A stretch of DNA of 63,836 nt, counting the filler, from Reclinomonas americana ATCC 50394 (lineage: Eukaryota), in assembly GCA_048213135.1 (NCBI GenBank). It is 5 parts of 4 records of this genome, joined end to end, with 100 filler letters (N's around TTAATTAATTAA, not from the genome) between each part and the next. Parts side by side here need not be neighbours in the genome. Positions count along the whole stretch, not along the records: positions 51,904 to 61,059 come from PS015459.1; 4 more parts are not named here. One strand, 5' to 3'. The translations under genes and the position numbers were made by a program. The notes beneath the pieces were generated by a model, which was not told the DNA's origin, made no database searches, and was given only the letters and a program-made list of their open reading frames with translations. Positions 37,175 through 61,159 of the stretch are shown piece by piece. Position 1 is the first letter of the stretch. Every line of letters begins with the position of its first letter.

Positions 37175-37348
37175 CTGCAACGATGGCGGGAAGCAAGTGA
37201 GAGGGGAGAAAAAGGGGGTAGGAAGATGGAAGACGAAGAGGGGAAGAAGAAGGGGCGAGCGACAGGGGGGAAGCGACAGGGGGGAAGCGACAGGGGGAAG
37301 GGACNNNNNNNNNNNNNNNNNNNNNNNNNNNNNNNNNNNNNNNNNNNN

Positions 37349-37360
37349 TTAATTAATTAA
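37349..37360. other. Artificial six-frame-stop scaffold linker
   Basis: TTAATTAATTAA inside an N block. Confidence 0.97.
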
Positions 37361-38025
37361 NNNNNNNNNNNNNNNNNNNNNNNNNNNNNNNNNNNNNNNN
37401 NNNNGGCACGCTTTCTTTTATTTGGTGTCAATACTGCTGATTGGGCAATAGAGCGCGAGAGTTAATATGATGGCGGACGAGAGACAGCAGGCAATGAAGG
37501 ATGAAGAGACAGCTGGGAGAGCGAGTGGGATGAGAAGAATGGCGGACGAGCGATACAGAAAGAGCAAGGGAAACTGCGGGAAGACACAGGAGAAATGAGG
37601 AGGAAGAGACGGACGAGCGATGTGCTGTATCTCTCCCCCCACTCCCCACTTTTCCTGTATCTCGTAATTGTTCTCATTGTTCTTTTTCTCGTTTCTTCCG
37701 TGTCTCCTGCCCTGCCTGCTGTTTCTCGCCCTTCTGTGGAGGTGCGATGAGAGCAGCAGAAAGAGTGCAAGAGCGAGAGATGCAGAATGAGTAAGGAAGG
37801 GATGCTGGGAAACATCAGGATGGGCGAGAGGCAGGGGGGAAAGAGGAGGATTCATGTGGGGACAGAAGCGAGGGATGCAAGAGTCGACAGATGGGCAAGG
37901 TAGAGTGCTTGGAGTTTGAGAGTCGTAGGTGGAAGAGGGTGAGAGAGCATGGCTGACGTCGCAACATACTTCCCCATCTCGCCTCTCTCCGCATCCTCTC
38001 ACCGCTCTTTATTTTTCTTACGCAG

Positions 38026-40156
38026 TACTCGTCGTACGGCTATGTTGGTACGTGCTCCCGTCTCCCGCTGTGCTGTGCGTATTTGTGCTTGTGCTGAGTT
38101 ATGCCATCAGCCTACGATGGCCATGCCAACCGCCTGATTGTGGCCTTCAAGGGCACCGACGACCTCGCCGACACCCTGGCCGACCTCGACATGTGCCACA
38201 CCAAGCTGTGGGACACAGGTTCGTGCAATGTGTACATTGCGCTGTGCTTGCTTTCGCTGACACATCGCTTTAGGTGTCAAGGTGCACAAGGGCTTCCTGC
38301 GCTCATACGAGGTGCGTCATGGCCTCGCCCGCTTTTATGTGCTCCATCCGCTAATTGCTCCCATTTTGTGCAGGCCTGCAAGGAGCAGTGGTATGAGGAC
38401 TTTGACCGCCACAACAAGAACCACCCCGACGCGGAGATTGTCGTCCTCGGGTTCGTGTACTTGTCGTCTCCCTGCTTATCTGGCACGCACTGAATGCTCC
38501 CTCATGTTTATGCAGACACTCGCTCGGTGGCGCGCAGGCTACGCTGGCGTCGTTGGATCTGACCTACCGCCACAGCATTGACGTTGCGTGGGAGGGTACT
38601 TTCTCCTTGTGTCCCTTGTCCTTTTGTTTGCTTGCAGTTCCTCCTCCACATACTTCTCCCTGCCTGAGTTCCCTCTCCTCCCCCGTCCTAGTCTCCCGAT
38701 TACTCCTCTCTCCTTTCCTCCCTCTCCCGTTGTCTCTCCTCATCTCTCCTCTCTTCACTCCTCCCCTATCCTCTCCTCTCCCCTCTTTTCTGCTTCCTCA
38801 CTCTGACTCCTCGTTTGCTTTCACACGTCTTCTTTTACTTTCTCTCCGCTTCCTCCTCTTTCCTGTCCTCATCGTGTTTCACTCCTTTCATACTTGCGTT
38901 TTGTCAGTTTTCTCCCCTGTCGCTCTTGTTGTCCATTTCCTGGCTTCTTCTCATCCTCTCCGTCTCACTGCTCCTCTCCTCTTCAAATTCATCGTGCTCT
39001 TCCTCATCTGTCTCTTCTTCCGCCTCCCGCCCCCTCCCCCTTGTCCTTCCTCCTCTTTCGCCCTCCTCCTCCCCCTCACTTTCCCTCCTCCCTCCACCTC
39101 GTTCGCCCTTCTCCCTCATCCTCCTCCCGCCTCACTTCCATCTCCCACTCCTTCCATCCCTTTTACCCTCCTCCCTCTCCCTGCCCTCCTCCCCCTCCCC
39201 TCCCTCGCCTCCACCCTCACTCTCCCTCCTCCTCCCCGCCACCCACAGCCGAACCGCATGATGGTATTCACTTTCGGCAGCCCGCGCGTTGGCGCCGACA
39301 ATTCGTTCTACCCGTTCTACATCAGCGAGATCCCGCTCGGACGCTCGTGGCGCATTGTGCAGTTGCGTCTCTCGGTGGACAGCAGTTCCTTTCTGCATTA
39401 ATTCTCACATTCTCCTTCTCCACTTTGCAGCAACCACGACATTGTGCCTGGTGAGTCTTTTCTCGGTGTGAATTTCTACGTACTGTTTCTTGATCTCACA
39501 CATCTCTCTCTCTCTCCATTGTGCAGACGTGAGTGATCGTGATGGAGAAACAAGTGGTGTTACTCAATAATCGAGCTTATTAACCCTTGCGTCTTCCCGC
39601 AGTTGCCGCCGAGCTACTTCAACTACGAGCACGTGCCGATCGAGGTGTGGTACAACAAGGTGCGTTCGTGCTTTTGACAAGCCATTTCGCTTCGTTCCCT
39701 CTCTCACCACTCACTCTCTCCTCGCAGGACAACACCCAGTTCAAGGTGTGCGAGCCGACCAAGGACTGCGGACCCCGTTGCGTTGCATTTCCCCTCCAGA
39801 GAAATGCATGCTAGCGTGTGCTCACTCTTGCCGTTTCCGTGCACAGAGCTCAACCTGTCGTCTGCCGGTACGCTTGCTTTGCACATTCACACACGCTCAT
39901 CTACCACTCATGTTTCTTTTGTTCTCCTCGTGCCGACCGCCAGACCACCACTTCTACGTTGCGTTGCCATTTCTTGTTCACCTTACACAACGGACAATCG
40001 TCTTATACAAACACGCACACACAGGTCGGCGTGCCGATCGACTGCGGCCTCAAGAGCGTGCAGATCGACGACGGCGCCTATGTGCGCGCCCTCGCCCGCA
40101 ACACGCACCGCTTCAACATGGCCGCCAACGTGTCGGAAGTGGAGCAATCCGAGTAA
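38026..40156 (+). CDS. Class 3 lipase (Lipase_3), multi-exon, 5' partial; contains a 2-nt microexon
   Basis: The spliced product contains LIVAFKGT, KVHKGFL, VLGHSLGGAQA, FTFGSPRVG, RIVHNHDIVPDLPP, YEHVPIEVWY and DHHFYVG. Confidence 0.93.
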
Positions 40157-40214
40157 CAAACGCGCGAGCAGCATTGTCGGTATTGTCAGTCAGTTTATAG
40201 TGCGCGAGTAAACT

Positions 40215-40631: not shown

Positions 40632-43600
40632 TGTGTGTGTGTGCATTGTGGGTTTGCGAGAGATTAGGCGTCTGTCGGTGACGGATAATCACGCCTATTC
40701 TTCTTCTTATTCTCCTTCTTCTTCTTCTGCTGCTGCTTCCTCCTCCTCCTCTTCCTTCTTCTTCTTCCTCCTCCTCCTCCTCCTCCTCCTCCTCCTCCTC
40801 TTCTTCCTTCTTCTTCTTCTTGTTCTTCCTGTTCTTCTTCTGCTTCTTGTTCGTCTTCTTCTTCTCTCCTCCTCCTCCTCCTTCTTCTTGTTCTTGTTCT
40901 TCTTCCTTCTCTTTCTCTCGCTCTCGTTACTGACTGTTTTCTTTGTTTGTTTGCTTCCGTAGGCGTTGCATGTGTTGAATGCGAGTGTCGGGCGCGACAC
41001 GCATCTCAGTGAGACCATGGTGAAGCACACGAGCAAGCCGGCGAATGATCCGGCGGCGTTGTACAAGCGGGCGCCGCTGAGTACATCACTTACTGTTGCG
41101 TGGCTATGGGGGAGAGGCAGAGAGGGTGGGGGGACGTTTGAAGAGATATCGAACCCGATATCGGAATTCACAGTGCTTTCTTCTCCCTCTCTCCATTTTC
41201 TTTCATTCACTCTCAGAGGGGTGCACGGAGAGAGAGTCTCCGTGTAAAGAACGATCAGACCACACATTTCCGATCGTGGGTTCGATTTCTCTCGCCGACT
41301 CTCTCCCTCGCACTCTCGGAGTGATGTTGGCAGGTGCACGAAGTAGAGAGGAGAAGCGATCAGAACACTGCTTGTCGATCGGGGTTTCGATATCTGTCAC
41401 TCGATGTGCCTCTTTCTCTCACTCGGAGTGGGGATGTTGTTGACACATGCATGGAGAGACGATCAGATTACTCATTTCCGATCGCGGGTTCAATTTCTCG
41501 CTCCTCTGACATTCACATTCCTCCGTCTGCATTCTCCCTCATCGGAACGCGCTTTGCGAGTCGTGGCTTGCCTCTTATCTGTTTTTCCCAGTCTCATCTT
41601 TCACTCTCAGAGGTGCAGCTCCGTGCAGATTGATCAGAGCGCTCGTTTCCGATCGCGGGTTCGATATCTGTCACTCGTGCCTCTTTCTCGCGTTTGCTCT
41701 CTATCACTGAGGGAGTCGCCGACGCATATTCGACATCGCGTGTCCCTCTTTGCTCTCCCCACTCTCTTTCTCTCTTGCTCTTCCGCGAGTAGGGCATTAT
41801 GCGACGCTGCACTCCGACAACGTGTTTGGCCGCTCCTCTACTTCTTCTTCCCGCTGCACCTCATCTACATAGATCGAGTTCACAGAGCGCTGCACTCCAA
41901 TCGCTCCTCTTCGGCCTTCTTGCCTCCGCCTGCATCTCGCTCTCTGAAAGTTGGGAAGAATAACAGCTATGCACAACAGTAGGCATAGCATTCTGATCGG
42001 ATTCCGTATCTCTCTCTTCATTTCTCCCCTCTCTCCTCCTCTCTTTCTCCCTCCCTCTCGCTCTCCTTCACTCTCTCCTTCTCACTCACCGTCCCCTGCG
42101 CGCAGTACTCACAATCCCGCGACCCACGCGCCACTGGCTCCGCGCACCGCACGAGAATGATGGTGACGCAGTCGACGCAGCACGCGGTGCACCGCGGTGC
42201 CGGCCATCCAGAGAGTGTACAGCGTGCCTTCAACGACCGATTGATGAGTGGCGTCAAGGCCGCAGTGGATAAGACGGCCACGGTGAGTGGAAAGAGGGAT
42301 GCAACTTTCGGTGCTTTCGTCTCACGCCGCACTACAGTTCAAGACGTACACGGATCCGATGTTGGACCATCAGTGGCGAACGACTAACCGCAACGCGCTG
42401 CGTGGCCACAGCGACGTGCTGGACGATCCGTTTCGTTTCTGCCGAGGGAGAAGAGAACAGAGTCATGTGTCTCGTCGCTCACTCTTGATTCGATGCAGTG
42501 TGACGTGGGCCACGACGCAGGGGCAGCGTAGTTACTTTGTCGATGGTGGCGATGTGCCGATTGGTGATTCGGGTGAGTACTCTCTTCCCCTTTGCTCTTT
42601 CCCCTTGTCTTCTTCACCTTGCTCTTCCTGCTTGCTTTCTCGCTTACTCCTCCCCTTGCTCTCTCCCCTGTGCCTTTCCCCCTGTGCCTTTCCTCCTGTG
42701 CCCTTCCCCCTTTGCCCTTCCCCCTTTGCCCCTCCCCTTTGCCCTTCCCCTTTGCTCCCCCTGTTCTCTTCCCCCCTTGCTTTTCCCCCTTTGCTCTTCC
42801 CCTCATGCTCTTCCCCCTTCGCTCTTCCCTCTTTTGCTCTTCCCCCTTTGCCCTTCCCCTTTGCCCCTCCCCTTTGCCCTTCCCCTTTGCTCCCCCTGTT
42901 CTCTTCCCCCTTTGCCCTTCCCCCTTTGCCCCTCCCCTTTGCCCTTCCCCTTTGCTCCCCCTGTTCTCTTCCCCCCTTGCTTTTCCCCCTTTGCTCTTCC
43001 CCTCATGCTCTTCCCTCTTTTGCTCTTCCCCCTTTTGATCTTCCCTTTTTTGCTCTTCCCCCTGTGCCTTTCCCCCTGTGCCTTTCCTCCTGTGCCCTTC
43101 CCTCTTTTGCTCTTCCCTCTTTTGCTCTTCCCCCTTTGCCCTTCCCCTTTGCCCTTCCACCTTTGCTCCCCCTTTGCCCTTCCCCCTTTGCCCCCCTTTG
43201 CTCTTCCCCTTCGCTCTGCCCCCTTTGCTCTTCCCCTCATGNNNNNNNNNNNNNNNNNNNNCTCTTCCCCCTTTCCCTTTCATCTCCGCAGCTGGGGGCA
43301 GCCGCGACGGCATGAGCCTCAAATCACCCGTCCGCGCGGTCAAATCGCAAGGCTTCATCGGCCTGCAGACCACCTACCAGGCGTTCCACACCAACCAGCG
43401 GGAGCACCCGCTGTACCCGAGCAGCTACGACCCACTAGGCAATCGCGTGCACCCGACGGTGCCGCAGGGCGTGCAGAGACCACAGACCACGTACGGTGAG
43501 TTGACACTGGAGCGGCCGGGACTGCGAGACGAGAAGGAGGACGGCTTCCCGCGCTCGCACGTGTTCGACGCCAAGCGTGGCCACGTGCGCTTCAACGACG

Positions 43601-51802: not shown

Positions 51803-51847
51803 ANNNNNNNNNNNNNNNNNNNNNNNNNNNNNNNNNNNNNNNNNNNN

Positions 51848-51859
51848 TTAATTAATTAA
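51848..51859. other. Artificial six-frame-stop scaffold linker
   Basis: TTAATTAATTAA inside an N block. Confidence 0.97.
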
Positions 51860-51956
51860 NNNNNNNNNNNNNNNNNNNNNNNNNNNNNNNNNNNNNNNNN
51901 NNNCCCTCTCTCTGTGTCTCACTCTGGCTGCACGCTGACCGCTGTCTTGTGTACAG

Positions 51957-53057
51957 CGCGCTCCGTCGCGACATGGAAGGCGCCGTGCATCACGTTCTCT
52001 TTGCCGACGTCAACATTACGCGACCCATGGCCGACAGTGTCGGCGAGGCCATTCAGCAGGTCATGGAGCACCGCTTGCAGCAGGCGGCCACTGCTGCTGC
52101 AGCAGCAGCAGCGGCGGTGGCGGCAACGACTGCAGCAGCAGCAGTGGTGGTGCCGGCAGTCGCGGTGACAGAGATGGCGGTGGATGCGGCGCCGACATTG
52201 TATCTGCCGAGTCATGTGCGCCAGAAGCAGCAGGCGGCACGGTCGGTGATGCAGCAGCGCAAGCCGGGCAATCGGACGAGTGCGGGAGGAGGTGCGGTTG
52301 CGGTGAATCGAGCTGCGCCGGCAGTCGCCACAACCACGGCTGTCACCACGGTAGCTGGCATCAACAAGAGAGCACGATCGACGGAGATGGGCAACTCGGA
52401 TCACGAGGGCCACTCAGACGACGAGTACGAACCTGGCAAGAACAAGAAAGGTCACTTGCACGCGTGTGCACAGTTCGTCTCTCCTTTGCACTGAACTGCG
52501 ACGATGCAGGTGGTGCGCGTGTTGGTGGCGGTGCGCCGCAATTGAAGCGACGCCGAACGTCGACTGGCGATGTGGCTGGCGAGGATGATGAGGCGGGTGA
52601 GGGCGAGGCGGGTGGTGAATCGGCTGCGCGGCCTGCTCGTCGGCGTACGACGGCTGTGGCGGGCACGACGCAGAGTAATGTGCGTATTGCGGAGCTGGTC
52701 GAGGCCGGGCTGTTGTGGGTGGGCCAGGAGTTGCGTTTCCGGTTGAGGGAGAAGATTGCCGATGTGCGCATTGGTGCGTCGGGCAGCATCGAGTTCGACG
52801 GCCGCGAGTTCGAGTATGTGTCGGCGTTTGCCAATCATGCGACGCGTGTGTTGCCGCCACTGGATGGATTCTCGCAGCAGAATGGATGGACGCGAGTGTG
52901 GGCATTCTTCCCGCCGCGTCCCGAGGCCAATGTGCCGGCGGGAAGTGAGACGCTGTCGGTGCTGATGGGCGATCTGAGGAGAATCTGGCGCCACGAGAAC
53001 GACGTCAAGGTCGACAAACTCAAGATGCAACTGCGGGCGTATGGATACACCAGCTGA
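51957..53057 (+). CDS. Low-complexity protein with C-terminal RAMA domain; 5' partial
   Basis: VRIAELVEAGLLWVGQELRF...IGASGSIEFDGREFEYVSAFA...QNGWTRV matches the RAMA pattern. A basic, NLS-like LKRRR is present. One intron at about 52452-52510. Confidence 0.7.
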   Translation, partial: RAPSRHGRRRASRSLCRRQHYATHGRQCRRGHSAGHGAPLAAGGHCCCSSSSGGGGNDCSSSSGGAGSRGDRDGGGCGADIVSAESCAPEAAGGTVGDAAAQAGQSDECGRRCGCGESSCAGSRHNHGCHHGSWHQQESTIDGDGQLGSRGPLRRRVRTWQEQERSLARVCTVRLSFALNCDDAGGARVGGGAPQLKRRRTSTGDVAGEDDEAGEGEAGGESAARPARRRTTAVAGTTQSNVRIAELVEAGLLWVGQELRFRLREKIADVRIGASGSIEFDGREFEYVSAFANHATRVLPPLDGFSQQNGWTRVWAFFPPRPEANVPAGSETLSVLMGDLRRIWRHENDVKVDKLKMQLRAYGYTS

Positions 53058-53369: not shown

Positions 53370-56300
53370 ATGCGTCGGAGCGGAGGTCGTGTTGCGCCGA
53401 CTTTCGAGGAGATCAAGCGGCAGTACGATGAGGCCTTGCAGCATTTTGACAGTGGTGACTATGCCACCGCCGCACCCCTCCTCGCTCGATGCATGCGAGA
53501 CTTACAGGACTTGCGCGGCCCCGACGATGAATGGACTCTTGCGTGTGCACAGAGCTACGCGAATGCACTCTCGGCTTCAGGAGATGCACAGAGCGCATTG
53601 CCGGTGTACGAGGATGTGTTGGAGAGGAGGAAGCGCGTGTCGGGTGCGACTCACAAGGAGACATTGAGTGCGGCTGCTGAGACAGGAAATGCGCTGAGGC
53701 AACTCGGGCGTCATCGCGAGGCCATTGCGTTGCTGCGTGACACGGCGGAGAAGCAAGAGCGCTACGGGGCCAAGGGGGACGTCAAGGATGTGTTGAAAAC
53801 CTTGCACGAATTGGCCGCGGCACTGTATGACAACAACGAAGGAGTACGAGGAGTCGATTCGGATTTCACGTGACGTTGTGCGCCGGAGACGTGAAGTGTT
53901 GGGCGAAGTTCACCCTGAGACGCTGACGAGCATGCACAACATGGCATGTGTGCTGGCCAAAGCAGGCGGCTTGGCCAATCTGGAGGAGGCTTTGGGGATC
54001 TATGAGGAGGTGTTGCCGCTGCAACGCCGCGAGCTGGGACCGGAACACGAACACACCAAAACCACGGCTGCCGACATCACCAGCGCCCGCGCAGACCTGG
54101 CGGCACTCTGCAAGGCTTCGTCGACGACCTCCCCTTCCGGTACGTCAGTGACACACTCTTTGAATCCCTCTCCACACTCGTTGTTCATCCGCTACTGCAG
54201 CTACCTCGGCTTCTGCATCGGCTCCACCGCCAGCGCGTTCTTCGGTGAGAGTAAACTGACATGTGCCGATGCTTACCCGTCACTTACCTCTCTGTGCACC
54301 AACCAGCCGACACCGGTGAACTCGGCCCGCGAGCAGCAGCTGGAGGCAGCAAACGCACAACTGCAACGCGATCTGACCGAGCAGCAGCGCCTCGTGCGAC
54401 AACAGACGCGAGAATTGACCACACTTCGCAACCAGCAGTCACAGTCGCAGGCCACCATCGCCCAGCTGCAGCGTGACCTGGCGCAACAACGAACGACAAC
54501 TCAACAGCACGAAGGAACGATTGCGCAACTGCGGCGCGAGGTGGAAGAGCAACATGCAGCGGTCCGCGAACGGGCCGCCCAAGTGGATGCAGCACAGCAG
54601 CGAGTGCAGCGTCGCGATGCCACGATTGCGCAACTGCAACGCGAGAAGAACGATCAGCAAGCCACTATCTGCGAGCAGATTGCCCATGTGGAAGCAGCAC
54701 AGCAGCGGGCGCAGCAACACGAAGCCACCATCGCCCAATTGCGTCGCGAGCTGGAGGCGCAGCAAGCCGCAGTTCGCGAGCGGACCACGCAAATGAATGC
54801 CGCGCAGCAGCTAGTGCAGCAACACGAGGCCACCATTGCGCAGCTGCGGCGCGAGGCGGAGGAGCAGCGGCGACAGGTTGTGCAGCTGACCGCTCAAGTG
54901 GGCGCAGCACAAGCGACTGGTCGAAGCCTGCAGCTGGAGCTGGAGGAGCAACGAGCGCACGCACAGCTTCAAGAGACAGGAGCTACGGGCTGGTACAACC
55001 GTGCTCGTGAGATGGAGACCACTGTGGTCAACCTGCGTCAGTCACTCGCCGCCAACAAGACCACAATACACCAGCTGCGCACTGCGCTCTCGCATGTGCA
55101 GCCGCAGCGAGAGGCCGCGGTGCAGCGCTTGCGCGAGGAATGTGCGGCTCTTCGAGTCTCCTTGGAACGCATGGACGAGCAGCGGCAGCAAGAATACGAC
55201 CGCGCACAACGACTGGCTGCTGATTTGGCCGCCGCGCAGCACGAGCTCAACCATCGTGGTGAGTGCGAANNNNNNNNNNNNNNNNNNNNAAGAACGCATG
55301 ACATGCTTGCTTCGTTGTTCGGAGATCGTGGCGGCATTGCATAGGTGAGGCAGCAGCTGCAGTGGGAAATCGGGTGCTTGTGGTCGTTTCTCATCATCTC
55401 TTGTTGTACAGGATGGTTTGTGTCGCTGTCGTGCTACTTGATGACGTCGTTTCTCACTCCCCTTCCCTCTCACTGTCACTGCTTTCTGTTCTCGCCGTCG
55501 CCCAGAATGGTGAGTCTCTGTGCGCTCATTTTACGTCGTGGCCTCAAATATTCACCATGATTCGCAGTCATTCATCGCGACTTGAAGCCCGCCAACATCC
55601 TGTTTGACGAGCGTGGCCAGGCGTGCATCTCGGATCTCGGAATCGCGCACTGGTTCCGCACCGGCGGGGTGAGTGTGCTCTCTCCCTTCCCTCGCCTTCC
55701 CGCCGATAATATACTCATGAGTGCACGTGTGGCGACAAGCAGACACACTTGTCGGTGCAGTTCGCCGGCGACCACGACTATGCTGATCCACAGGCACTGC
55801 GTGGCATTCTGCGCCCCAGCACCGACGTGTACTGCCTCGGACTCATTCTGCTGCAACTGTTCTCCGGTCAGCCGATCGCCGAGGTACACAAGTGGATCGA
55901 GGGGATGGTGGAGGACGACGACGTGGCGAGACTCGATGAGGCCGCTGTGCAACTGGCCGATGTCGCGGTCGGCCGGGGGTTGCCGACATCCGTCAGTCGG
56001 CGTCTTGTGCGGTTGGCCATGCGGTGAGTAGTAAGCATCAGCCCCGTTCTTGTTTGCACTGTGTAGTTCCCTCATGGTTCGGGGTGCTGCAGCTGTGTCG
56101 ACTATCGACCCAATCGCCGCCCGAGTGCCGACGACATGGTGGCCGAGTTGCGCGATCTCACTGCGTTGTCGTGCCGTCGCGCCTGCGTTCTCTGTTACAA
56201 TGTGCGCAACACTCGACTGCATCCATGCGGACACGAGGTGGTGTGTCGCAATTGTGCGCAGCAAGTTGTCGACCGTCGCGGCGAGTGTCCTCTCTGTCGC

Positions 56301-56390
56301 ACCTCGGTCGCCCGTTTTGAATCAGGAGACGAGTTCGGCTTCCACGCGTTTGTGCCAGAACCACCTGCCGCGGCAGCCGTTCGAGTATGA
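53370..56390 (+). CDS. TPR (kinesin light chain-type) + coiled coil + IRAK/Pelle-like kinase + C3HC4 RING; apparent frameshift at about 53840; kinase N-lobe presumably lost in gap
   Basis: TPR motifs LGEVHPETLTSMHNMA and LGPEHEHT; 35-aa coiled-coil repeats; VIHRDLKPANILFD, ISDLG, YADP and TDVYCLGLILLQL; RING CVLC...PCGHEVVCRNC...CPLCR. Confidence 0.85.
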
Positions 56391-58196: not shown

Positions 58197-60840
58197 TCAC
58201 GAGGATGCTCCCGACAGCGGCGCATGTGGGATCTCCTGACTGTAGGCAATGTGATTCTCGGGCACCGGTAACCGGAAGGGGCCGGCCAAGTTCACCTCCA
58301 CCTCGATCGGCAGCTCCACCTTGGAGCTGTACAGGCAGATGGTGGGGAAGAGTGCGTATTCTGGCACAGAAATGCTGACTTTGCCACTGTACACGCGCCC
58401 TCCAGGAGTTAGCGCTGAAGGGAGGAGCGACACGAGGGCGATGTACGCAACTAGTGGCCAATCGAGCGCACGAGTTCGCCATTGCGGAAGAACTGCATAA
58501 ACTTGCGATCCTGGTCCAGAGAGATGCCCCACACGTCGCCCTCCTCAATGGCGGTTTGCACATAGTCCGCACGGCCGCTCAGATAAAACACTGCAGCGCA
58601 GCAGTGAGATACATGTGGAGTGATTATGGACTGCTCTTCTTCTCTCAGTACCTCCCGTGCTTTGCAGTCCGCACGCGAACCACTTGGACGGGTCACGCAG
58701 TGGACACGTGCGGCCGGGGATCACACCGCGCGTGTGCATCAGCTTGTCTTGTTGCACGTCCCACCCAATGCTGACACTGTGATTGGAGTGTCAGTCAAAC
58801 AGTTTCAGCGCATGTGCGAAGAGGCCACCAAACCTCGAGCCAGGCGCGTCTGGGAAACGGTGAATGTACACCTCGAAGTAGAACTTGCCCCAGTCCGTGT
58901 TCAGCTTGCCGCTGTCGGTCTGTACCGACATGTACTTGAGAGGGACCTGTTGCAAGAGACAGGAGTCAATGAAGAGCAGTGACAGACGTCTCGTTCTGCG
59001 CTTGCAGGTCACCTTGGTGCTCATCCGCAACCCCAGTTCGTCAAAGGCCAAGTTCGAGGACGCAGTTTCCTGCAAAAGTAGACACAATCAGTCCTCAGCA
59101 TAGCGGCTGGTCCACATCCTCCCGTAAAACGCACCCGATTGAGAACGACTTTCACCCGCCGCTTTCTCCGATTGTCAATCTCCACTCGCAACTGGTCGGG
59201 GAACGGTGTTGTGCCGGATTCGAGTAATTCAACCAGGTCCTCGATTGTCTTTCGTCTGACCAACCGCACGAAGGTCAGTCAATCAGCGAGAAGAAACCAG
59301 GGAATAGGACACGCCACACCTTAGATCCTCAGTAAAGATCAGCTGCCGATATCTCAGCTCCTTCTCGAGGTGTTCGTGTTGAATGAAANNNNNNNNNNNN
59401 NNNNNNNNNTACTGGGCCAGTCTTTCAGTCTGCTTATCTCTCCTCTTCCTCTCCCTCTCAATGCCTCTCTCGCTTTCTCTCTTTCTCTGTCAATCGGCCT
59501 TTCGGCCTCTCTCTCTTTCTGTGTTATCTTTTCCTTCTTTCTGTCTGTGCGCCTCCAAGCCAGCCTGTCTGCTTAAGTCTCACTCTTTTGCACACATTCT
59601 CTGGGTTTGTATATTTCCCACATTGCCTGTCGCAAGTCTCTACTCGCCTGTCTCCTCTCTCTCTCTCTCTCCCTCCCTCTTCTTATCATTCTTCTTCTTT
59701 TCATTCTTTTCTGTATGTATGTCGATTATGTTTGCCTTGCTGATCTTCCTTCTTTCCATTCTCCTTTCTCACTGCCGTTTGTCATTCTTTCCGTCTGCCT
59801 GTCTCTACGTCTCTCCTCCTTTCCCTTCCATTTCCCTCTCCCCTTTTTCCCCTCCCTTTCCCCCTCCTCCCCCTCCCTCGCCCTCACCTCAAATCCGTCA
59901 CCTCCAGCGCACTCGACAACAAGAACAACTTCGACAAACCCTCCGGCTCAAAAATAAACGCCGTCGCCGCCGCATTGCGCTCCTGCTCCCGCTCCAGCGT
60001 CTGAATCTCCGCACCCGAAACGCGCAACACAAGAGTCCTGCGGCACGCAGTCAGTCACAACTCACCCGTCGCCAACCAAACAAGTCATCGCAACTCTGCG
60101 TCCTGACTCTCGCGTTCACACAACGAATTCTTCTCGTGCTTCAGGTGCTCACAGATGGTCTCCACCTTCTTGATCTCGTTCTGCACACAGGCAGGAGTAA
60201 TCGGTGAGTGAACAGACTCATTGAAGCGGGAACCTTGCGCGTTGAGCTCGACCGCGAGCTGAAACCAGCATCTCTCTCTCTCTCTCTCCTCGCACACGCA
60301 CCTCCATGTGGAACTCGTACATGCGCTGCAAATTCTTCAAATCCTTCTGGAACGACGCCTCGAAATCCTTCTTGATCGCCGCCTTGCGGTCGTCGCACTC
60401 ACGACTGCCACGCACAGAGAGAGACATACCGTCAGTCGCAGAGACAGCAGAGCCCTCCTTGCCCCCCATGCGCAACTTGATCAACGCCTCATAATCGTCG
60501 CGCTTCTTCGCAAAATCACCTACGAGCTCGGCAATCGTGTCGTCTCTTCGCTTCTTGGCGGCCGCCACCTTGTTGGCCAGGTCGATTTCCTGCAGAGGTG
60601 GTAGAATGAGCAACCACTCCTCTCACTCCCCGTCGTGCTGCCTGCACGCAACTCTCTGACGCGAATCCGAGTCCTTGGAGAACGCAGCCATCTTCTTGAT
60701 ATTATCTTCACTGTACATGCCAAAGGTGTTGAACTTGGCCAAGTCACCGGCCATGTCGTCCAACACGATCACCGTGTCGGAGCGGTCGAGGTCCAGCCGG
60801 TCTTCGTCCTCGATAAACAAATTCTCCATCACCATGCGCT
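58197..60840 (-). CDS. Coiled-coil protein with possible BTB/BACK-like segment and C-terminal SPRY (B30.2) domain; 5' partial
   Basis: GKFYFEVYI, VSIGW, EEGDVWGISLD, FMQFFRNGELV, LFPTICL and VNLAGPFRLPVP are SPRY-type motifs. Upstream exons are charged and helical. Confidence 0.8.
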
Positions 60841-61059: not shown

Positions 61060-61103
61060 NNNNNNNNNNNNNNNNNNNNNNNNNNNNNNNNNNNNNNNNN
61101 NNN

Positions 61104-61115
61104 TTAATTAATTAA
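61104..61115. other. Artificial six-frame-stop scaffold linker
   Basis: TTAATTAATTAA inside an N block. Confidence 0.97.
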
Positions 61116-61159
61116 NNNNNNNNNNNNNNNNNNNNNNNNNNNNNNNNNNNNNNNNNNNN

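What the first reader, a model, noticed from the sequence alone, without database searches (positions are those of the whole stretch)
55345..55567. Two consecutive 4-nt microexons just before the kinase catalytic loop
Seen: TTG CAT AG|GTGAGG...GTACAG|GATG (55412-55415)|GTTTGT...CCCAG|AATG (55506-55509)|GTGAGT...CGCAG|TC ATT CAT CGC GAC, with introns of 67, 90 and 58 nt. The joined product reads AALH-R-M-N-V-IHRDLKPAN, the standard LH-xxx-VIHRDLK spacing of protein kinases. Skipping either exon causes a frameshift. This is the third independent gene with extreme microexons in 64 kb, so the trait is probably genome-wide.
Basis: partly seen in the sequence, partly recalled or inferred. Interest (0 to 1): 0.75.

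Follow-up and report, generated by a model that had tools for sequence, protein, structure and literature searches.

The report
Two 4-base exons in kinase gene
A protein kinase gene of an unidentified intron-rich eukaryote can only keep its reading frame if two exons of just four bases each, separated by short ordinary introns, are spliced in; such tiny exons are already known from plants and some protists, and no RNA data could be found to prove these two.

Summary
The upstream exon ends at 55344. GATG (55412-55415) and AATG (55506-55509) lie between GT..CAG intervals of 67, 90 and 58 nt. The catalytic-loop exon starts at 55568.

I enumerated 2661 GT/GC-AG splice paths. 233 keep the frame without a stop, and 0 of these use a single intron. 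The 4+4 path ranks first: 69.0 combined bits against 60.1 for the best rival, a single 8-nt exon.

Its product aligns without gaps to a profile built from 255 kinase segments (70.1 bits, against 56.4 for the catalytic exon alone). It has five residues between the helix-E His and HRD, as do 198 of 295 kinase segments.

Each interval has its own donor, CTCAY branch-like motif and CAG, and their splice scores mostly lie within the range of 77 other predicted introns. Of 5349 AG-N1-12-GT sites in the window, 4 reach these scores. Two are these exons and one is a 2-nt exon in a lipase gene.

No RNA run was listed and no close relative was found, so splicing is inferred, not shown. A 20-N gap hides the kinase N-lobe.

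This is a new member of a known kind. The same scan noted 1-, 2- and 4-nt exons in Naegleria on other DNA.

The parts
55270..55289 (.). 20-N assembly gap inside the gene. The kinase N-lobe exons are presumably lost here.
   Evidence: No Pkinase N-lobe match was found in any ORF of at least 125 aa (150 of 175 scanned; the other 25, most of them in and around this gene, were not) or in the five ORF pieces scanned. Joining the coiled-coil exon (donor at 55259) directly to 55325 gives a stop, by my reading.
55292..55344 (+). Exon (or the end of one) encoding the kinase helix-E segment, ending ...A-A-L-H plus AG. Its true 5' end is unknown: either the gap, or an acceptor at 55324 that would make a 20-nt exon.
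   Evidence: Frame seen. It adds 13.7 bits to the kinase profile score and beats all 200 shuffled controls. The acceptor at 55324 scores 2.8 bits.
55345..55411 (+). Intron 1, 67 nt, GTGAGG...CTCAT (branch-like A 18 nt from the end)...ACAG.
   Evidence: Donor 1.6 bits, acceptor 8.1 bits. CTCAT position.
55412..55415 (+). Microexon 1, GATG. It supplies the last base of the Arg codon and the Met codon.
55416..55505 (+). Intron 2, 90 nt, GTTTGT...CTCAC (33 and 49 nt from the end)...CCAG. Its only AG is the terminal one.
   Evidence: Donor 2.7 bits, acceptor 5.1 bits. GTTTGT is the donor in 3 of 77 training introns. CTCAC positions.
55506..55509 (+). Microexon 2, AATG. It supplies the Asn codon and the first base of the Val codon.
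55510..55567 (+). Intron 3, 58 nt, GTGAGT...CTCAT (39 nt from the end) / TTCAC (13 nt)...GCAG.
   Evidence: Donor 4.0 bits. Acceptor 1.3 bits, which is weak (9th percentile of the training set). Motif positions.
55568..55668 (+). Exon encoding the catalytic loop (HRDLKPAN) and the DLG (DFG-equivalent) motif.
   Evidence: Pkinase PF00069, profile positions 118-149, E 1e-8. 801 library proteins at E<=0.001.
55669..55742 (+). Intron 4, 74 nt. An alternative in-frame acceptor lies at 55760.
   Evidence: Donor GTGAGT 6.8 bits; acceptors -1.1 and -0.1 bits. Frames read.
55743..56023 (+). Exon encoding the activation segment through kinase subdomain X.
   Evidence: Weak Pkinase match, profile positions 154-200, E 0.016. 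Open frame.
56024..56092 (+). Intron 5, 69 nt, GTGAGT...CTCAT...TGCAG.
   Evidence: The acceptor score printed was computed one base off and is not used.
56093..56390 (+). Last exon: kinase subdomain XI, then a C3HC4 RING finger, then the stop codon.
   Evidence: zf-C3HC4_3 PF13920, E 8.8e-10. ORF end.

Best explanation
Three short spliceosomal GT-AG introns (67, 90 and 58 nt) interrupt 12 consecutive coding bases of a protein kinase gene. They leave two constitutive 4-nt exons, GATG and AATG. Once spliced, AG + GATG + AATG + TC reads Arg-Met-Asn-Val. This is the turn between helix E (...A-A-L-H) and the strand that leads into the catalytic loop (I-H-R-D-L-K-P-A-N).

Shown here: the sequence anatomy; that extra bases are needed for the frame and for the kinase spacing; and that each interval carries its own donor, branch-like motif and CAG, of a strength mostly seen in other predicted introns of the window.

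Inferred: the introns are recognised one by one (intron definition) and removed in sequence, because a 4-nt exon cannot hold the 3' splice-site factors of one intron and U1 at the next donor at the same time. Missing either exon would shift the frame and give a truncated product.

The gene also encodes TPR repeats and a long coiled coil upstream, and a RING finger at the C-terminus. Its kinase N-lobe lies in an assembly gap.
For: - Exact AG|NNNN|GT anatomy.
- The downstream exon is a kinase catalytic loop (801 library hits at E<=0.001).
- The upstream 17 residues raise the kinase-profile score from 56.4 to 70.1 bits in a gapless alignment. This is above all 200 shuffled-upstream controls (mean 61.1, maximum 67.7).
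- 198 of 295 distinct kinase segments have five residues between the helix-E His (or Asn) and the HRD His, as this model gives.
- Of 2661 GT/GC-AG paths with up to 3 introns of at least 30 nt, 233 are in frame and stop-free, and 0 of those have one intron. The 4+4 path is first on profile score and on profile plus splice score minus 8 bits per intron (69.0 against 60.1).
- Splice scores with the locus left out. Donors 1.6, 2.7 and 4.0 bits fall at the 26th, 40th and 57th percentile of the training set. Acceptors 8.1, 5.1 and 1.3 bits fall at the 69th, 43rd and 9th percentile.
- The rival donors score -0.6 and -3.5 bits (3rd and 0th percentile).
- CTCAY lies in the last 50 nt of 36 of 77 training introns, against 11% of random 44-mers, and is present in each of the three intervals.
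- All three intervals end in CAG, as do 73 of 77 training introns. Their lengths fit the training median of 80 nt (10th-90th percentile 55-173).
- Only 4 of 5349 AG-N1-12-GT sites in the window reach these scores, and two of them are these exons.
- A self-trained exon-chain finder picked the same path.
- The rest of the kinase C-lobe and the RING finger are open and intact over three further exons.
Against: - There is no transcript evidence: no RNA run was listed.
- No orthologue or paralogue was found for comparison.
- The splice matrices come from introns predicted by my own crude finder, not from validated introns. Earlier training rounds included this locus, so there is slight leakage.
- The finder mis-predicts other exons of this very gene.
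- The intron 3 acceptor is weak (1.3 bits) and its best branch-like motif sits far from the 3' end (39 nt).
- Single 8-nt-exon models score nearly as well on the protein profile (68.7 and 65.7 against 70.1 bits).
- The locus lies 55-280 nt from a contig end next to a gap, where draft sequence is least reliable.
- The N-lobe is missing, so it is not shown that the gene is complete.
Confidence: 0.7

Rival explanations
1. Only one microexon, of 8 nt, is used. Either it is 55412-55419 (GATGGTTT, donor GTGTCG at 55420, second intron 148 nt), or it is 55506-55513 (AATGGTGA, donor GTCTCT at 55514, first intron 161 nt). Both restore the frame and the five-residue spacing.
For: Both are in frame and stop-free. 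They rank 3rd and 2nd on the kinase profile (65.7 and 68.7 bits against 70.1). They need one intron fewer.
Against: Their donors score -0.6 and -3.5 bits, the 3rd and 0th percentile of training donors. Each would ignore a better donor 4 nt upstream (GTTTGT 2.7 bits, GTGAGT 4.0 bits). Each would also leave a high-scoring acceptor (8.1 or 5.1 bits) unused inside an intron. Combined scores are 60.1 and 57.2 against 69.0.
Confidence: 0.1
2. The first small exon is longer through an alternative donor: 55412-55430, 19 nt, donor GTGCTA. It is followed by AATG and gives a five-residue insertion in the linker. This form might coexist with the 4-nt form as an in-frame alternative 5' splice site.
For: It is in frame and stop-free, with a combined score of 58.9, third overall. 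GTGCTT/GTGCTC-type donors occur in 5 of 77 training introns. 11 of 295 kinase segments have a 10-residue spacing.
Against: The kinase-profile score is lower (63.5 against 70.1 bits). The splice sum is lower (19.4 against 22.9 bits).
Confidence: 0.05
3. Nothing here is spliced as proposed. The kinase is a decaying or truncated pseudogene, or the draft sequence near the contig end carries an indel. In that case the AG-NNNN-GT pairs are chance features of one 223-nt intron.
For: The 20-N gap lies 55 nt upstream and the N-lobe is absent from the assembly. No expression evidence was obtained and no relatives were found.
Against: A single intron corrected by an indel would leave at most 2-3 residues between His and HRD. 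0 of 295 kinase segments have fewer than 3, and 8 have 3. The downstream 680 nt of coding sequence, in three exons, is open and keeps the kinase and RING motifs. Two sites of this quality 94 nt apart are unlikely by chance: 4 in 118 kb of both strands, Markov mean 1.9.
Confidence: 0.1

Closest known systems
Plant microexons of 15 nt or less, including the 1-nt exons of APC11 and VPS55 and two adjacent microexons (5 and 12 nt) in a rice transcript (Yu et al. 2022, PMC8831610; I read passages only)
   Same: They are constitutive, coding, ultra-short exons with ordinary GT-AG borders, and gene finders and aligners usually miss them. Adjacent pairs occur. In Chlamydomonas, Pkinase is among the top motifs encoded by microexons. 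The authors argue that the flanking introns are removed one after the other because the exon is too small for simultaneous assembly.
   Different: Here both exons are 4 nt, and three introns fall within 12 coding bases. The organism is an unidentified GC-rich protist-like eukaryote, not a plant. The plant cases have RNA-seq and RT-PCR support, and this one has none.
Naegleria gruberi ultra-short exons noted earlier in this scan (e1-670276: 4-nt and 1-nt exons in a Rho GTPase; e1-636783: 2-nt exon in Zn2Cys6 genes; AI notes seen, not checked by me)
   Same: The tiny exons are inferred from the need to restore a conserved motif and the frame between short GT-AG introns in a protist. One case also has two tiny exons in a row.
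   Different: It is a different genome (AT-rich Naegleria against about 55% GC here) and a different gene family. Some of those cases had a conserved counterpart in a relative, and none is available here.
Animal neuronal microexons (3-27 nt, SRRM4-dependent). This is recalled knowledge and was not looked up here, apart from the ITSN1 note e1-613777.
   Same: They are very short exons that insert a few residues into folded domains.
   Different: The animal microexons are alternative, mostly multiples of three, and lie in long introns with dedicated enhancers. These two are not multiples of three, so they must always be included, and they sit between introns of 58-90 nt.

Membership tests
Ultra-short constitutive spliceosomal microexon | The exon is bounded by AG on the 5' side and GT on the 3' side. 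| tested here: met
   CAG|GATG|GTTTGT and CAG|AATG|GTGAGT.
Ultra-short constitutive spliceosomal microexon | Each flanking intron is complete in itself: donor, branch site, pyrimidine-rich 3' end, YAG, and a typical length. | tested here: met
   With the locus left out of training, donors score 1.6, 2.7 and 4.0 bits and acceptors 8.1, 5.1 and 1.3 bits. Five of the six lie between the 26th and 69th percentile of the training set; the intron 3 acceptor is at the 9th. CTCAY is present in each interval. Lengths of 67, 90 and 58 nt compare with a training median of 80. The training introns are predictions, not validated introns.
Ultra-short constitutive spliceosomal microexon | Inclusion is needed for the reading frame and for a conserved protein motif. 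| tested here: met
   0 of 233 in-frame paths have a single intron. The model aligns gaplessly at 70.1 bits. The five-residue spacing occurs in 198 of 295 kinase segments.
Ultra-short constitutive spliceosomal microexon | The exon is present in mature transcripts. | not testable with these tools
Ultra-short constitutive spliceosomal microexon | The exon, or the same coding bases inside a larger exon, is conserved in orthologues. | not testable with these tools
   No close relatives were found. One search gave none at E<=0.001. One search gave five generic kinase loci at 41-49% identity over about 40 residues. No genome is held.
Eukaryotic protein kinase (Pkinase, PF00069) | Catalytic loop HRDxKxxN and the DFG motif. 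| tested here: met
   HRDLKPAN and DLG in the exon 55568-55668. Pkinase profile positions 118-149, 35.3 bits against a cutoff of 31.7.
Eukaryotic protein kinase (Pkinase, PF00069) | N-lobe: glycine-rich loop, VAIK lysine and helix-C glutamate. | tested here: inconclusive
   It was not found in the ORFs scanned (150 of the 175 ORFs of at least 125 aa went into). The 20-N gap at 55270-55289 lies exactly where it should be encoded.
Eukaryotic protein kinase (Pkinase, PF00069) | C-lobe: activation segment and subdomains IX-XI. | tested here: inconclusive
   The exon 55743-56023 gives only a weak Pkinase match (E 0.016, profile positions 154-200). The motifs that I read by eye (D-V-Y-C-L-G, R-R-P-S) fit subdomains IX and XI as I recall them.
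RING finger (zf-C3HC4_3, PF13920) | C3HC4 zinc-binding pattern that matches the profile above its cutoff. | tested here: met
   38.7 bits against a cutoff of 27, profile positions 3-48 of 49.

The most novel reading that the evidence does not exclude
Exons of 2-5 nt are a regular feature of this unidentified, intron-rich, roughly 55% GC eukaryote, at a percent-level share of internal exons (3 of 109 crudely predicted internal exons here are 8 nt or shorter). That would be well above my recalled impression of plant rates, which I did not look up. It would imply a spliceosome and a splicing order adapted to introns that are packed a few bases apart, perhaps as the trace of a burst of intron gain.
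Probability: 0.25. Interest if true: 0.6.

Novelty: new member of a known kind. Interest (0 to 1): 0.4.

Why it matters
If real, these two exons show that three introns can be packed into 12 coding bases and still be spliced accurately. That constrains models of splice-site recognition, because the introns would have to be removed in order and defined as introns rather than across exons.

In practice, standard gene finders and spliced aligners would miss both exons and would report this kinase as frameshifted, truncated or a pseudogene. The same would happen to the lipase gene with its 2-nt exon. Any annotation of this genome would therefore need microexon-aware modelling.

The phenomenon itself is already documented in plants (PMC8831610) and was noted by this scan in Naegleria. 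The value here is as one more lineage and as a rather extreme double case.

Tried and rejected
- **Whole genome.** None is held, so I could run no genome-wide count and no paralogue search.
- **Close relatives.** The kinase exon 55743-56024 against the 5.8-billion-protein index, longer proteins only: 534 candidates, none at E<=0.001. The same exon in metagenome contigs gave five loci, all generic kinases at 41-49% identity over about 40 residues, and I did not use them. An ABC-transporter ORF, tried to obtain an intron training set from homology: 3047 candidates, none significant. The sterol methyltransferase exon gave at best 58% identity, so the organism and its near relatives are not in that index. 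Its spliced alignment showed no microexon.
- **Introner or repeat origin.** blastn-short of five introns of this gene against the window found no other copy. The 11-mer shared by introns 1 and 2 matches the extended branch-like motif (TTTCTCAY) seen in other introns, so I do not take it as evidence of duplication.
- **RNA structure bringing the sites together.** The fold of 55325-55600 has z = -0.17, and 90 of 200 shuffles fold at least as well.
- **Hidden small RNA.** Rfam gave no match in the window at gathering scores.
- **Pfam support for the lipase microexon.** The pieces were too short and one reference was a base out of frame. Only the GHSLGG exon matched.
- **Earlier notes on this genome.** There are none.
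- **Organism identity.** I compared against the chlorarachniophyte figures in PMC12730881 (passages): GC of 27% and 45% does not fit. The organism remains unidentified.
Full report
**Observation**

- An exon ends ...TTGCATAG at 55344.
- Three intervals follow: 55345-55411 (67 nt, GTGAGG...ACAG), 55416-55505 (90 nt, GTTTGT...CCAG) and 55510-55567 (58 nt, GTGAGT...GCAG).
- They are separated by GATG (55412-55415) and AATG (55506-55509).
- The next exon begins TCATTCATCGCGAC at 55568.

**The gene**

The exon 55568-55668 matches the Pfam protein kinase profile at positions 118-149, which cover the catalytic loop HRDLKPAN and the DLG motif (E 1e-8).
- Downstream, two more GTGAGT introns (55669-55742 and 56024-56092) separate an exon for the activation segment and C-lobe from a last exon. 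That last exon ends in a C3HC4 RING finger (PF13920, E 8.8e-10).
- Upstream of the gap lie TPR_10/TPR_12 repeats and about 400 residues of coiled coil. Further upstream is a RAMA domain.
- All four GT[GA]AGT hexamers on the + strand between 51900 and 57400 sit at ends of open frames of this gene.
- I found no kinase N-lobe in the sequence scanned (one search took 150 of the 175 ORFs of at least 125 aa). Joining the coiled-coil exon directly to the sequence after the gap gives a stop codon. I therefore infer that the N-lobe exons lie in the gap.

**Is an insertion of coding bases needed?**

The frame that ends ...E-I-V-A-A-L-H plus AG and the frame of I-H-R-D-L-K differ by 8 nt modulo 3.
- I enumerated every path through GT or GC donors and AG acceptors between 55325 and 55575, with one to three introns of at least 30 nt. 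Of 2661 paths, 233 are in frame, stop-free and keep the catalytic-loop frame. None of the 233 has a single intron.
- To judge which path makes a sensible kinase, I searched the 1.84-billion-protein representative library with the 33-residue catalytic exon. This gave 801 hits at E<=0.001, of which I retrieved the best 150.
- From these I cut 295 distinct 85-residue segments around the HRD motif. In 198 of 295 there are five residues between the helix-E His (or Asn) and the His of HRD. Another 37 have eight, 13 have seven, 11 have ten, 8 have three, and none has fewer.
The alignment is gapless: A-L-H-R-M-N-V-I-H-R-D falls on the consensus L-H-s-k-g-i-v-H-R-D.
- The upstream 17 residues add 13.7 bits over the catalytic exon alone (56.4). 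This exceeds all 200 controls in which those residues were shuffled (mean 61.1, maximum 67.7). The upstream frame is therefore truly kinase-like.

**Are the three intervals introns in their own right?**

No transcript or homology-defined intron set was available. I wrote a simple exon-chain finder that uses codon log-odds from Pfam-supported and long ORFs, requires GT-AG, and charges a penalty per intron. I let it train donor and acceptor matrices over four rounds.
- It is crude. It mis-predicts two downstream exons of this very gene. Even so, it chose 55412-55415 and 55506-55509 on its own, and also a 2-nt exon in the lipase gene.
- For scoring I rebuilt the matrices from 77 predicted introns of 200 nt or less, leaving out 55200-56200 and 39400-39650.

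| Site | Score (bits) | Percentile of training set |
|---|---|---|
| Donor 55345 | 1.6 | 26th |
| Donor 55416 | 2.7 | 40th |
| Donor 55510 | 4.0 | 57th |
| Acceptor 55411 | 8.1 | 69th |
| Acceptor 55505 | 5.1 | 43rd |
| Acceptor 55567 | 1.3 | 9th |

- All six sites lie between the 85th and 99.5th percentile of all GT or AG dinucleotides in the window.
- GTTTGT is the donor of 3 of the 77 training introns and GTGAGT of 10. 73 of 77 end in CAG, as all three intervals do. The median training length is 80 nt, with a 10th-90th percentile range of 55-173.
- A branch-like motif, CTCAY, lies in the last 50 nt of 36 of 77 training introns, against 11% of random 44-mers. Each of the three intervals has one, 18, 33 (also 49) and 39 nt from its 3' end. 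By my reading, no AG lies between that motif and the terminal AG in any of them.

**Chance**

Over both strands of the window there are 5349 AG-N(1-12)-GT sites.
- Only four have an acceptor of at least 5.0 bits and a donor of at least 2.6 bits. They are the two exons here, the 2-nt exon at 39527-39528, and a 5-nt candidate at 809-813 on the minus strand.
- Twenty Markov-1 simulations gave a mean of 1.9 per window. Two such sites 94 nt apart, in exactly the gap that needs 8 bases, is far from expectation.
- The thresholds were chosen after the fact, and real introns are richer in pyrimidines than the simulated sequence.

**Rivals**

I added the profile score and the splice scores and subtracted 8 bits per intron.

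| Model | Combined score (bits) |
|---|---|
| One 8-nt exon, 55412-55419 (donor GTGTCG, -0.6 bits) | 60.1 |
| 19-nt variant of the first exon, 55412-55430, plus AATG | 58.9 |
| One 8-nt exon, 55506-55513 (donor GTCTCT, -3.5 bits) | 57.2 |

- All three rivals still need at least one exon of 8 nt or less.
- A pseudogene or a sequencing indel near the contig end cannot be excluded without RNA. A single intron plus an indel would leave at most two or three residues between His and HRD, a spacing that none of the 295 kinase segments falls below. The remaining 680 nt of coding sequence are intact.

**Mechanism (inferred)**

With introns of 58-90 nt, recognition is most likely by intron definition. 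A 4-nt exon cannot hold the 3' splice-site factors of one intron and U1 at the next donor at once, so the introns should be removed one after another. This is the argument made for plant microexons in PMC8831610 (passages read). I found no RNA structure that would help (z = -0.17), no repeat or introner copies of these introns in the window, and no Rfam family.

**Comparison with what is known**

Ultra-short constitutive exons are documented in plants: 2398 microexons of 15 nt or less, 1-nt exons in APC11 and VPS55, and an adjacent 5-nt plus 12-nt pair in rice. In Chlamydomonas, Pkinase is among the top motifs they encode (PMC8831610; abstract, passages). This scan had already noted 1-, 2- and 4-nt exons in Naegleria gruberi on other DNA (notes e1-670276 and e1-636783; I did not check them). 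The present case is therefore a new member of a known kind. It is notable for two 4-nt exons in a row and three introns within 12 coding bases.

**The 'genome-wide' claim**

I could confirm one further case in the window. In the Lipase_3 gene, the exon ending ...D-I-V-P plus G (39431-39450) and the exon starting L-P-P-S-Y (39603) are joined in frame only through AC at 39527-39528. That 2-nt exon has the best acceptor in this comparison (10.7 bits) and a GTGAGT donor. That lipases carry D-I-V-P-x-L-P-P there is my recollection, not a tool result; the Pfam pieces were too short to test it.

Three of 109 crudely predicted internal exons are 8 nt or shorter. No genome is held, so the frequency cannot be measured.

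**Verdict**

Adding the two rival models that also need an exon of 8 nt or less (0.10 and 0.05) gives about 0.85.
- It is unproven at the RNA level.
- Novelty is modest.

Noticed in passing
window 39527-39528 (+), Lipase_3 gene about 38100-40160: A 2-nt exon (AC) sits between a 76-nt and a 74-nt intron (CCTG|GTGAGT...TGTGCAG|AC|GTGAGT...CCGCAG|TTGCCG). It is needed to keep the D-I-V-P exon and the L-P-P-S-Y-F exon in frame. Its acceptor score is the highest in the comparison (10.7 bits).
   Followed up: partly
window 55270-55289: A 20-N gap lies inside the kinase gene. The whole N-lobe (glycine loop, VAIK, helix C) is absent from the assembled sequence, so any gene model here will be truncated or split.
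   Followed up: partly
window 55742 / 55760 (+): Two in-frame acceptors 18 nt apart at the start of the activation-segment exon, both weak (-1.1 and -0.1 bits). This could be an alternative 3' splice site that adds or removes six residues.
   Followed up: no
window 809-813 (-), 60401-60402 (-), about 41084-41093 (-): Further AG-N-GT candidates with pyrimidine-rich upstream sequence and GTGAGT/GTAAGT/GTGTGT donors (5, 2 and 10 nt). I did not test whether they are needed for a reading frame.
   Followed up: no
window 51939-53054 (+): A RAMA domain (PF18755, Restriction Enzyme Adenine Methylase Associated; E 1.6e-9) lies in an ORF that my exon-chain finder joins to the TPR / coiled-coil part of the same gene. 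This is an unusual partner for a eukaryotic TPR-kinase-RING protein.
   Followed up: no
window about 1100-3800 and about 9100-11700 (-): Two stretches about 8 kb apart share near-identical splice-site contexts (for example the donors at 2219 and 10257, and at 1596 and 9633). They lie in genes with NHL repeats, which suggests a recent segmental duplication.
   Followed up: no
window 13102-13201, 37305-37404, 51804-51903, 61060-61159: Four gaps share an identical odd layout: 44 N, 12 real bases, 44 N. This looks like an assembler or masking artefact rather than biology.
   Followed up: no
window 38598-39248 (+): A CT-rich low-complexity intron of about 650 nt in the lipase gene. The phase of its flanking exons did not close with the simple donor I tried, so another small exon or a different donor may be hidden there.
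   Followed up: no
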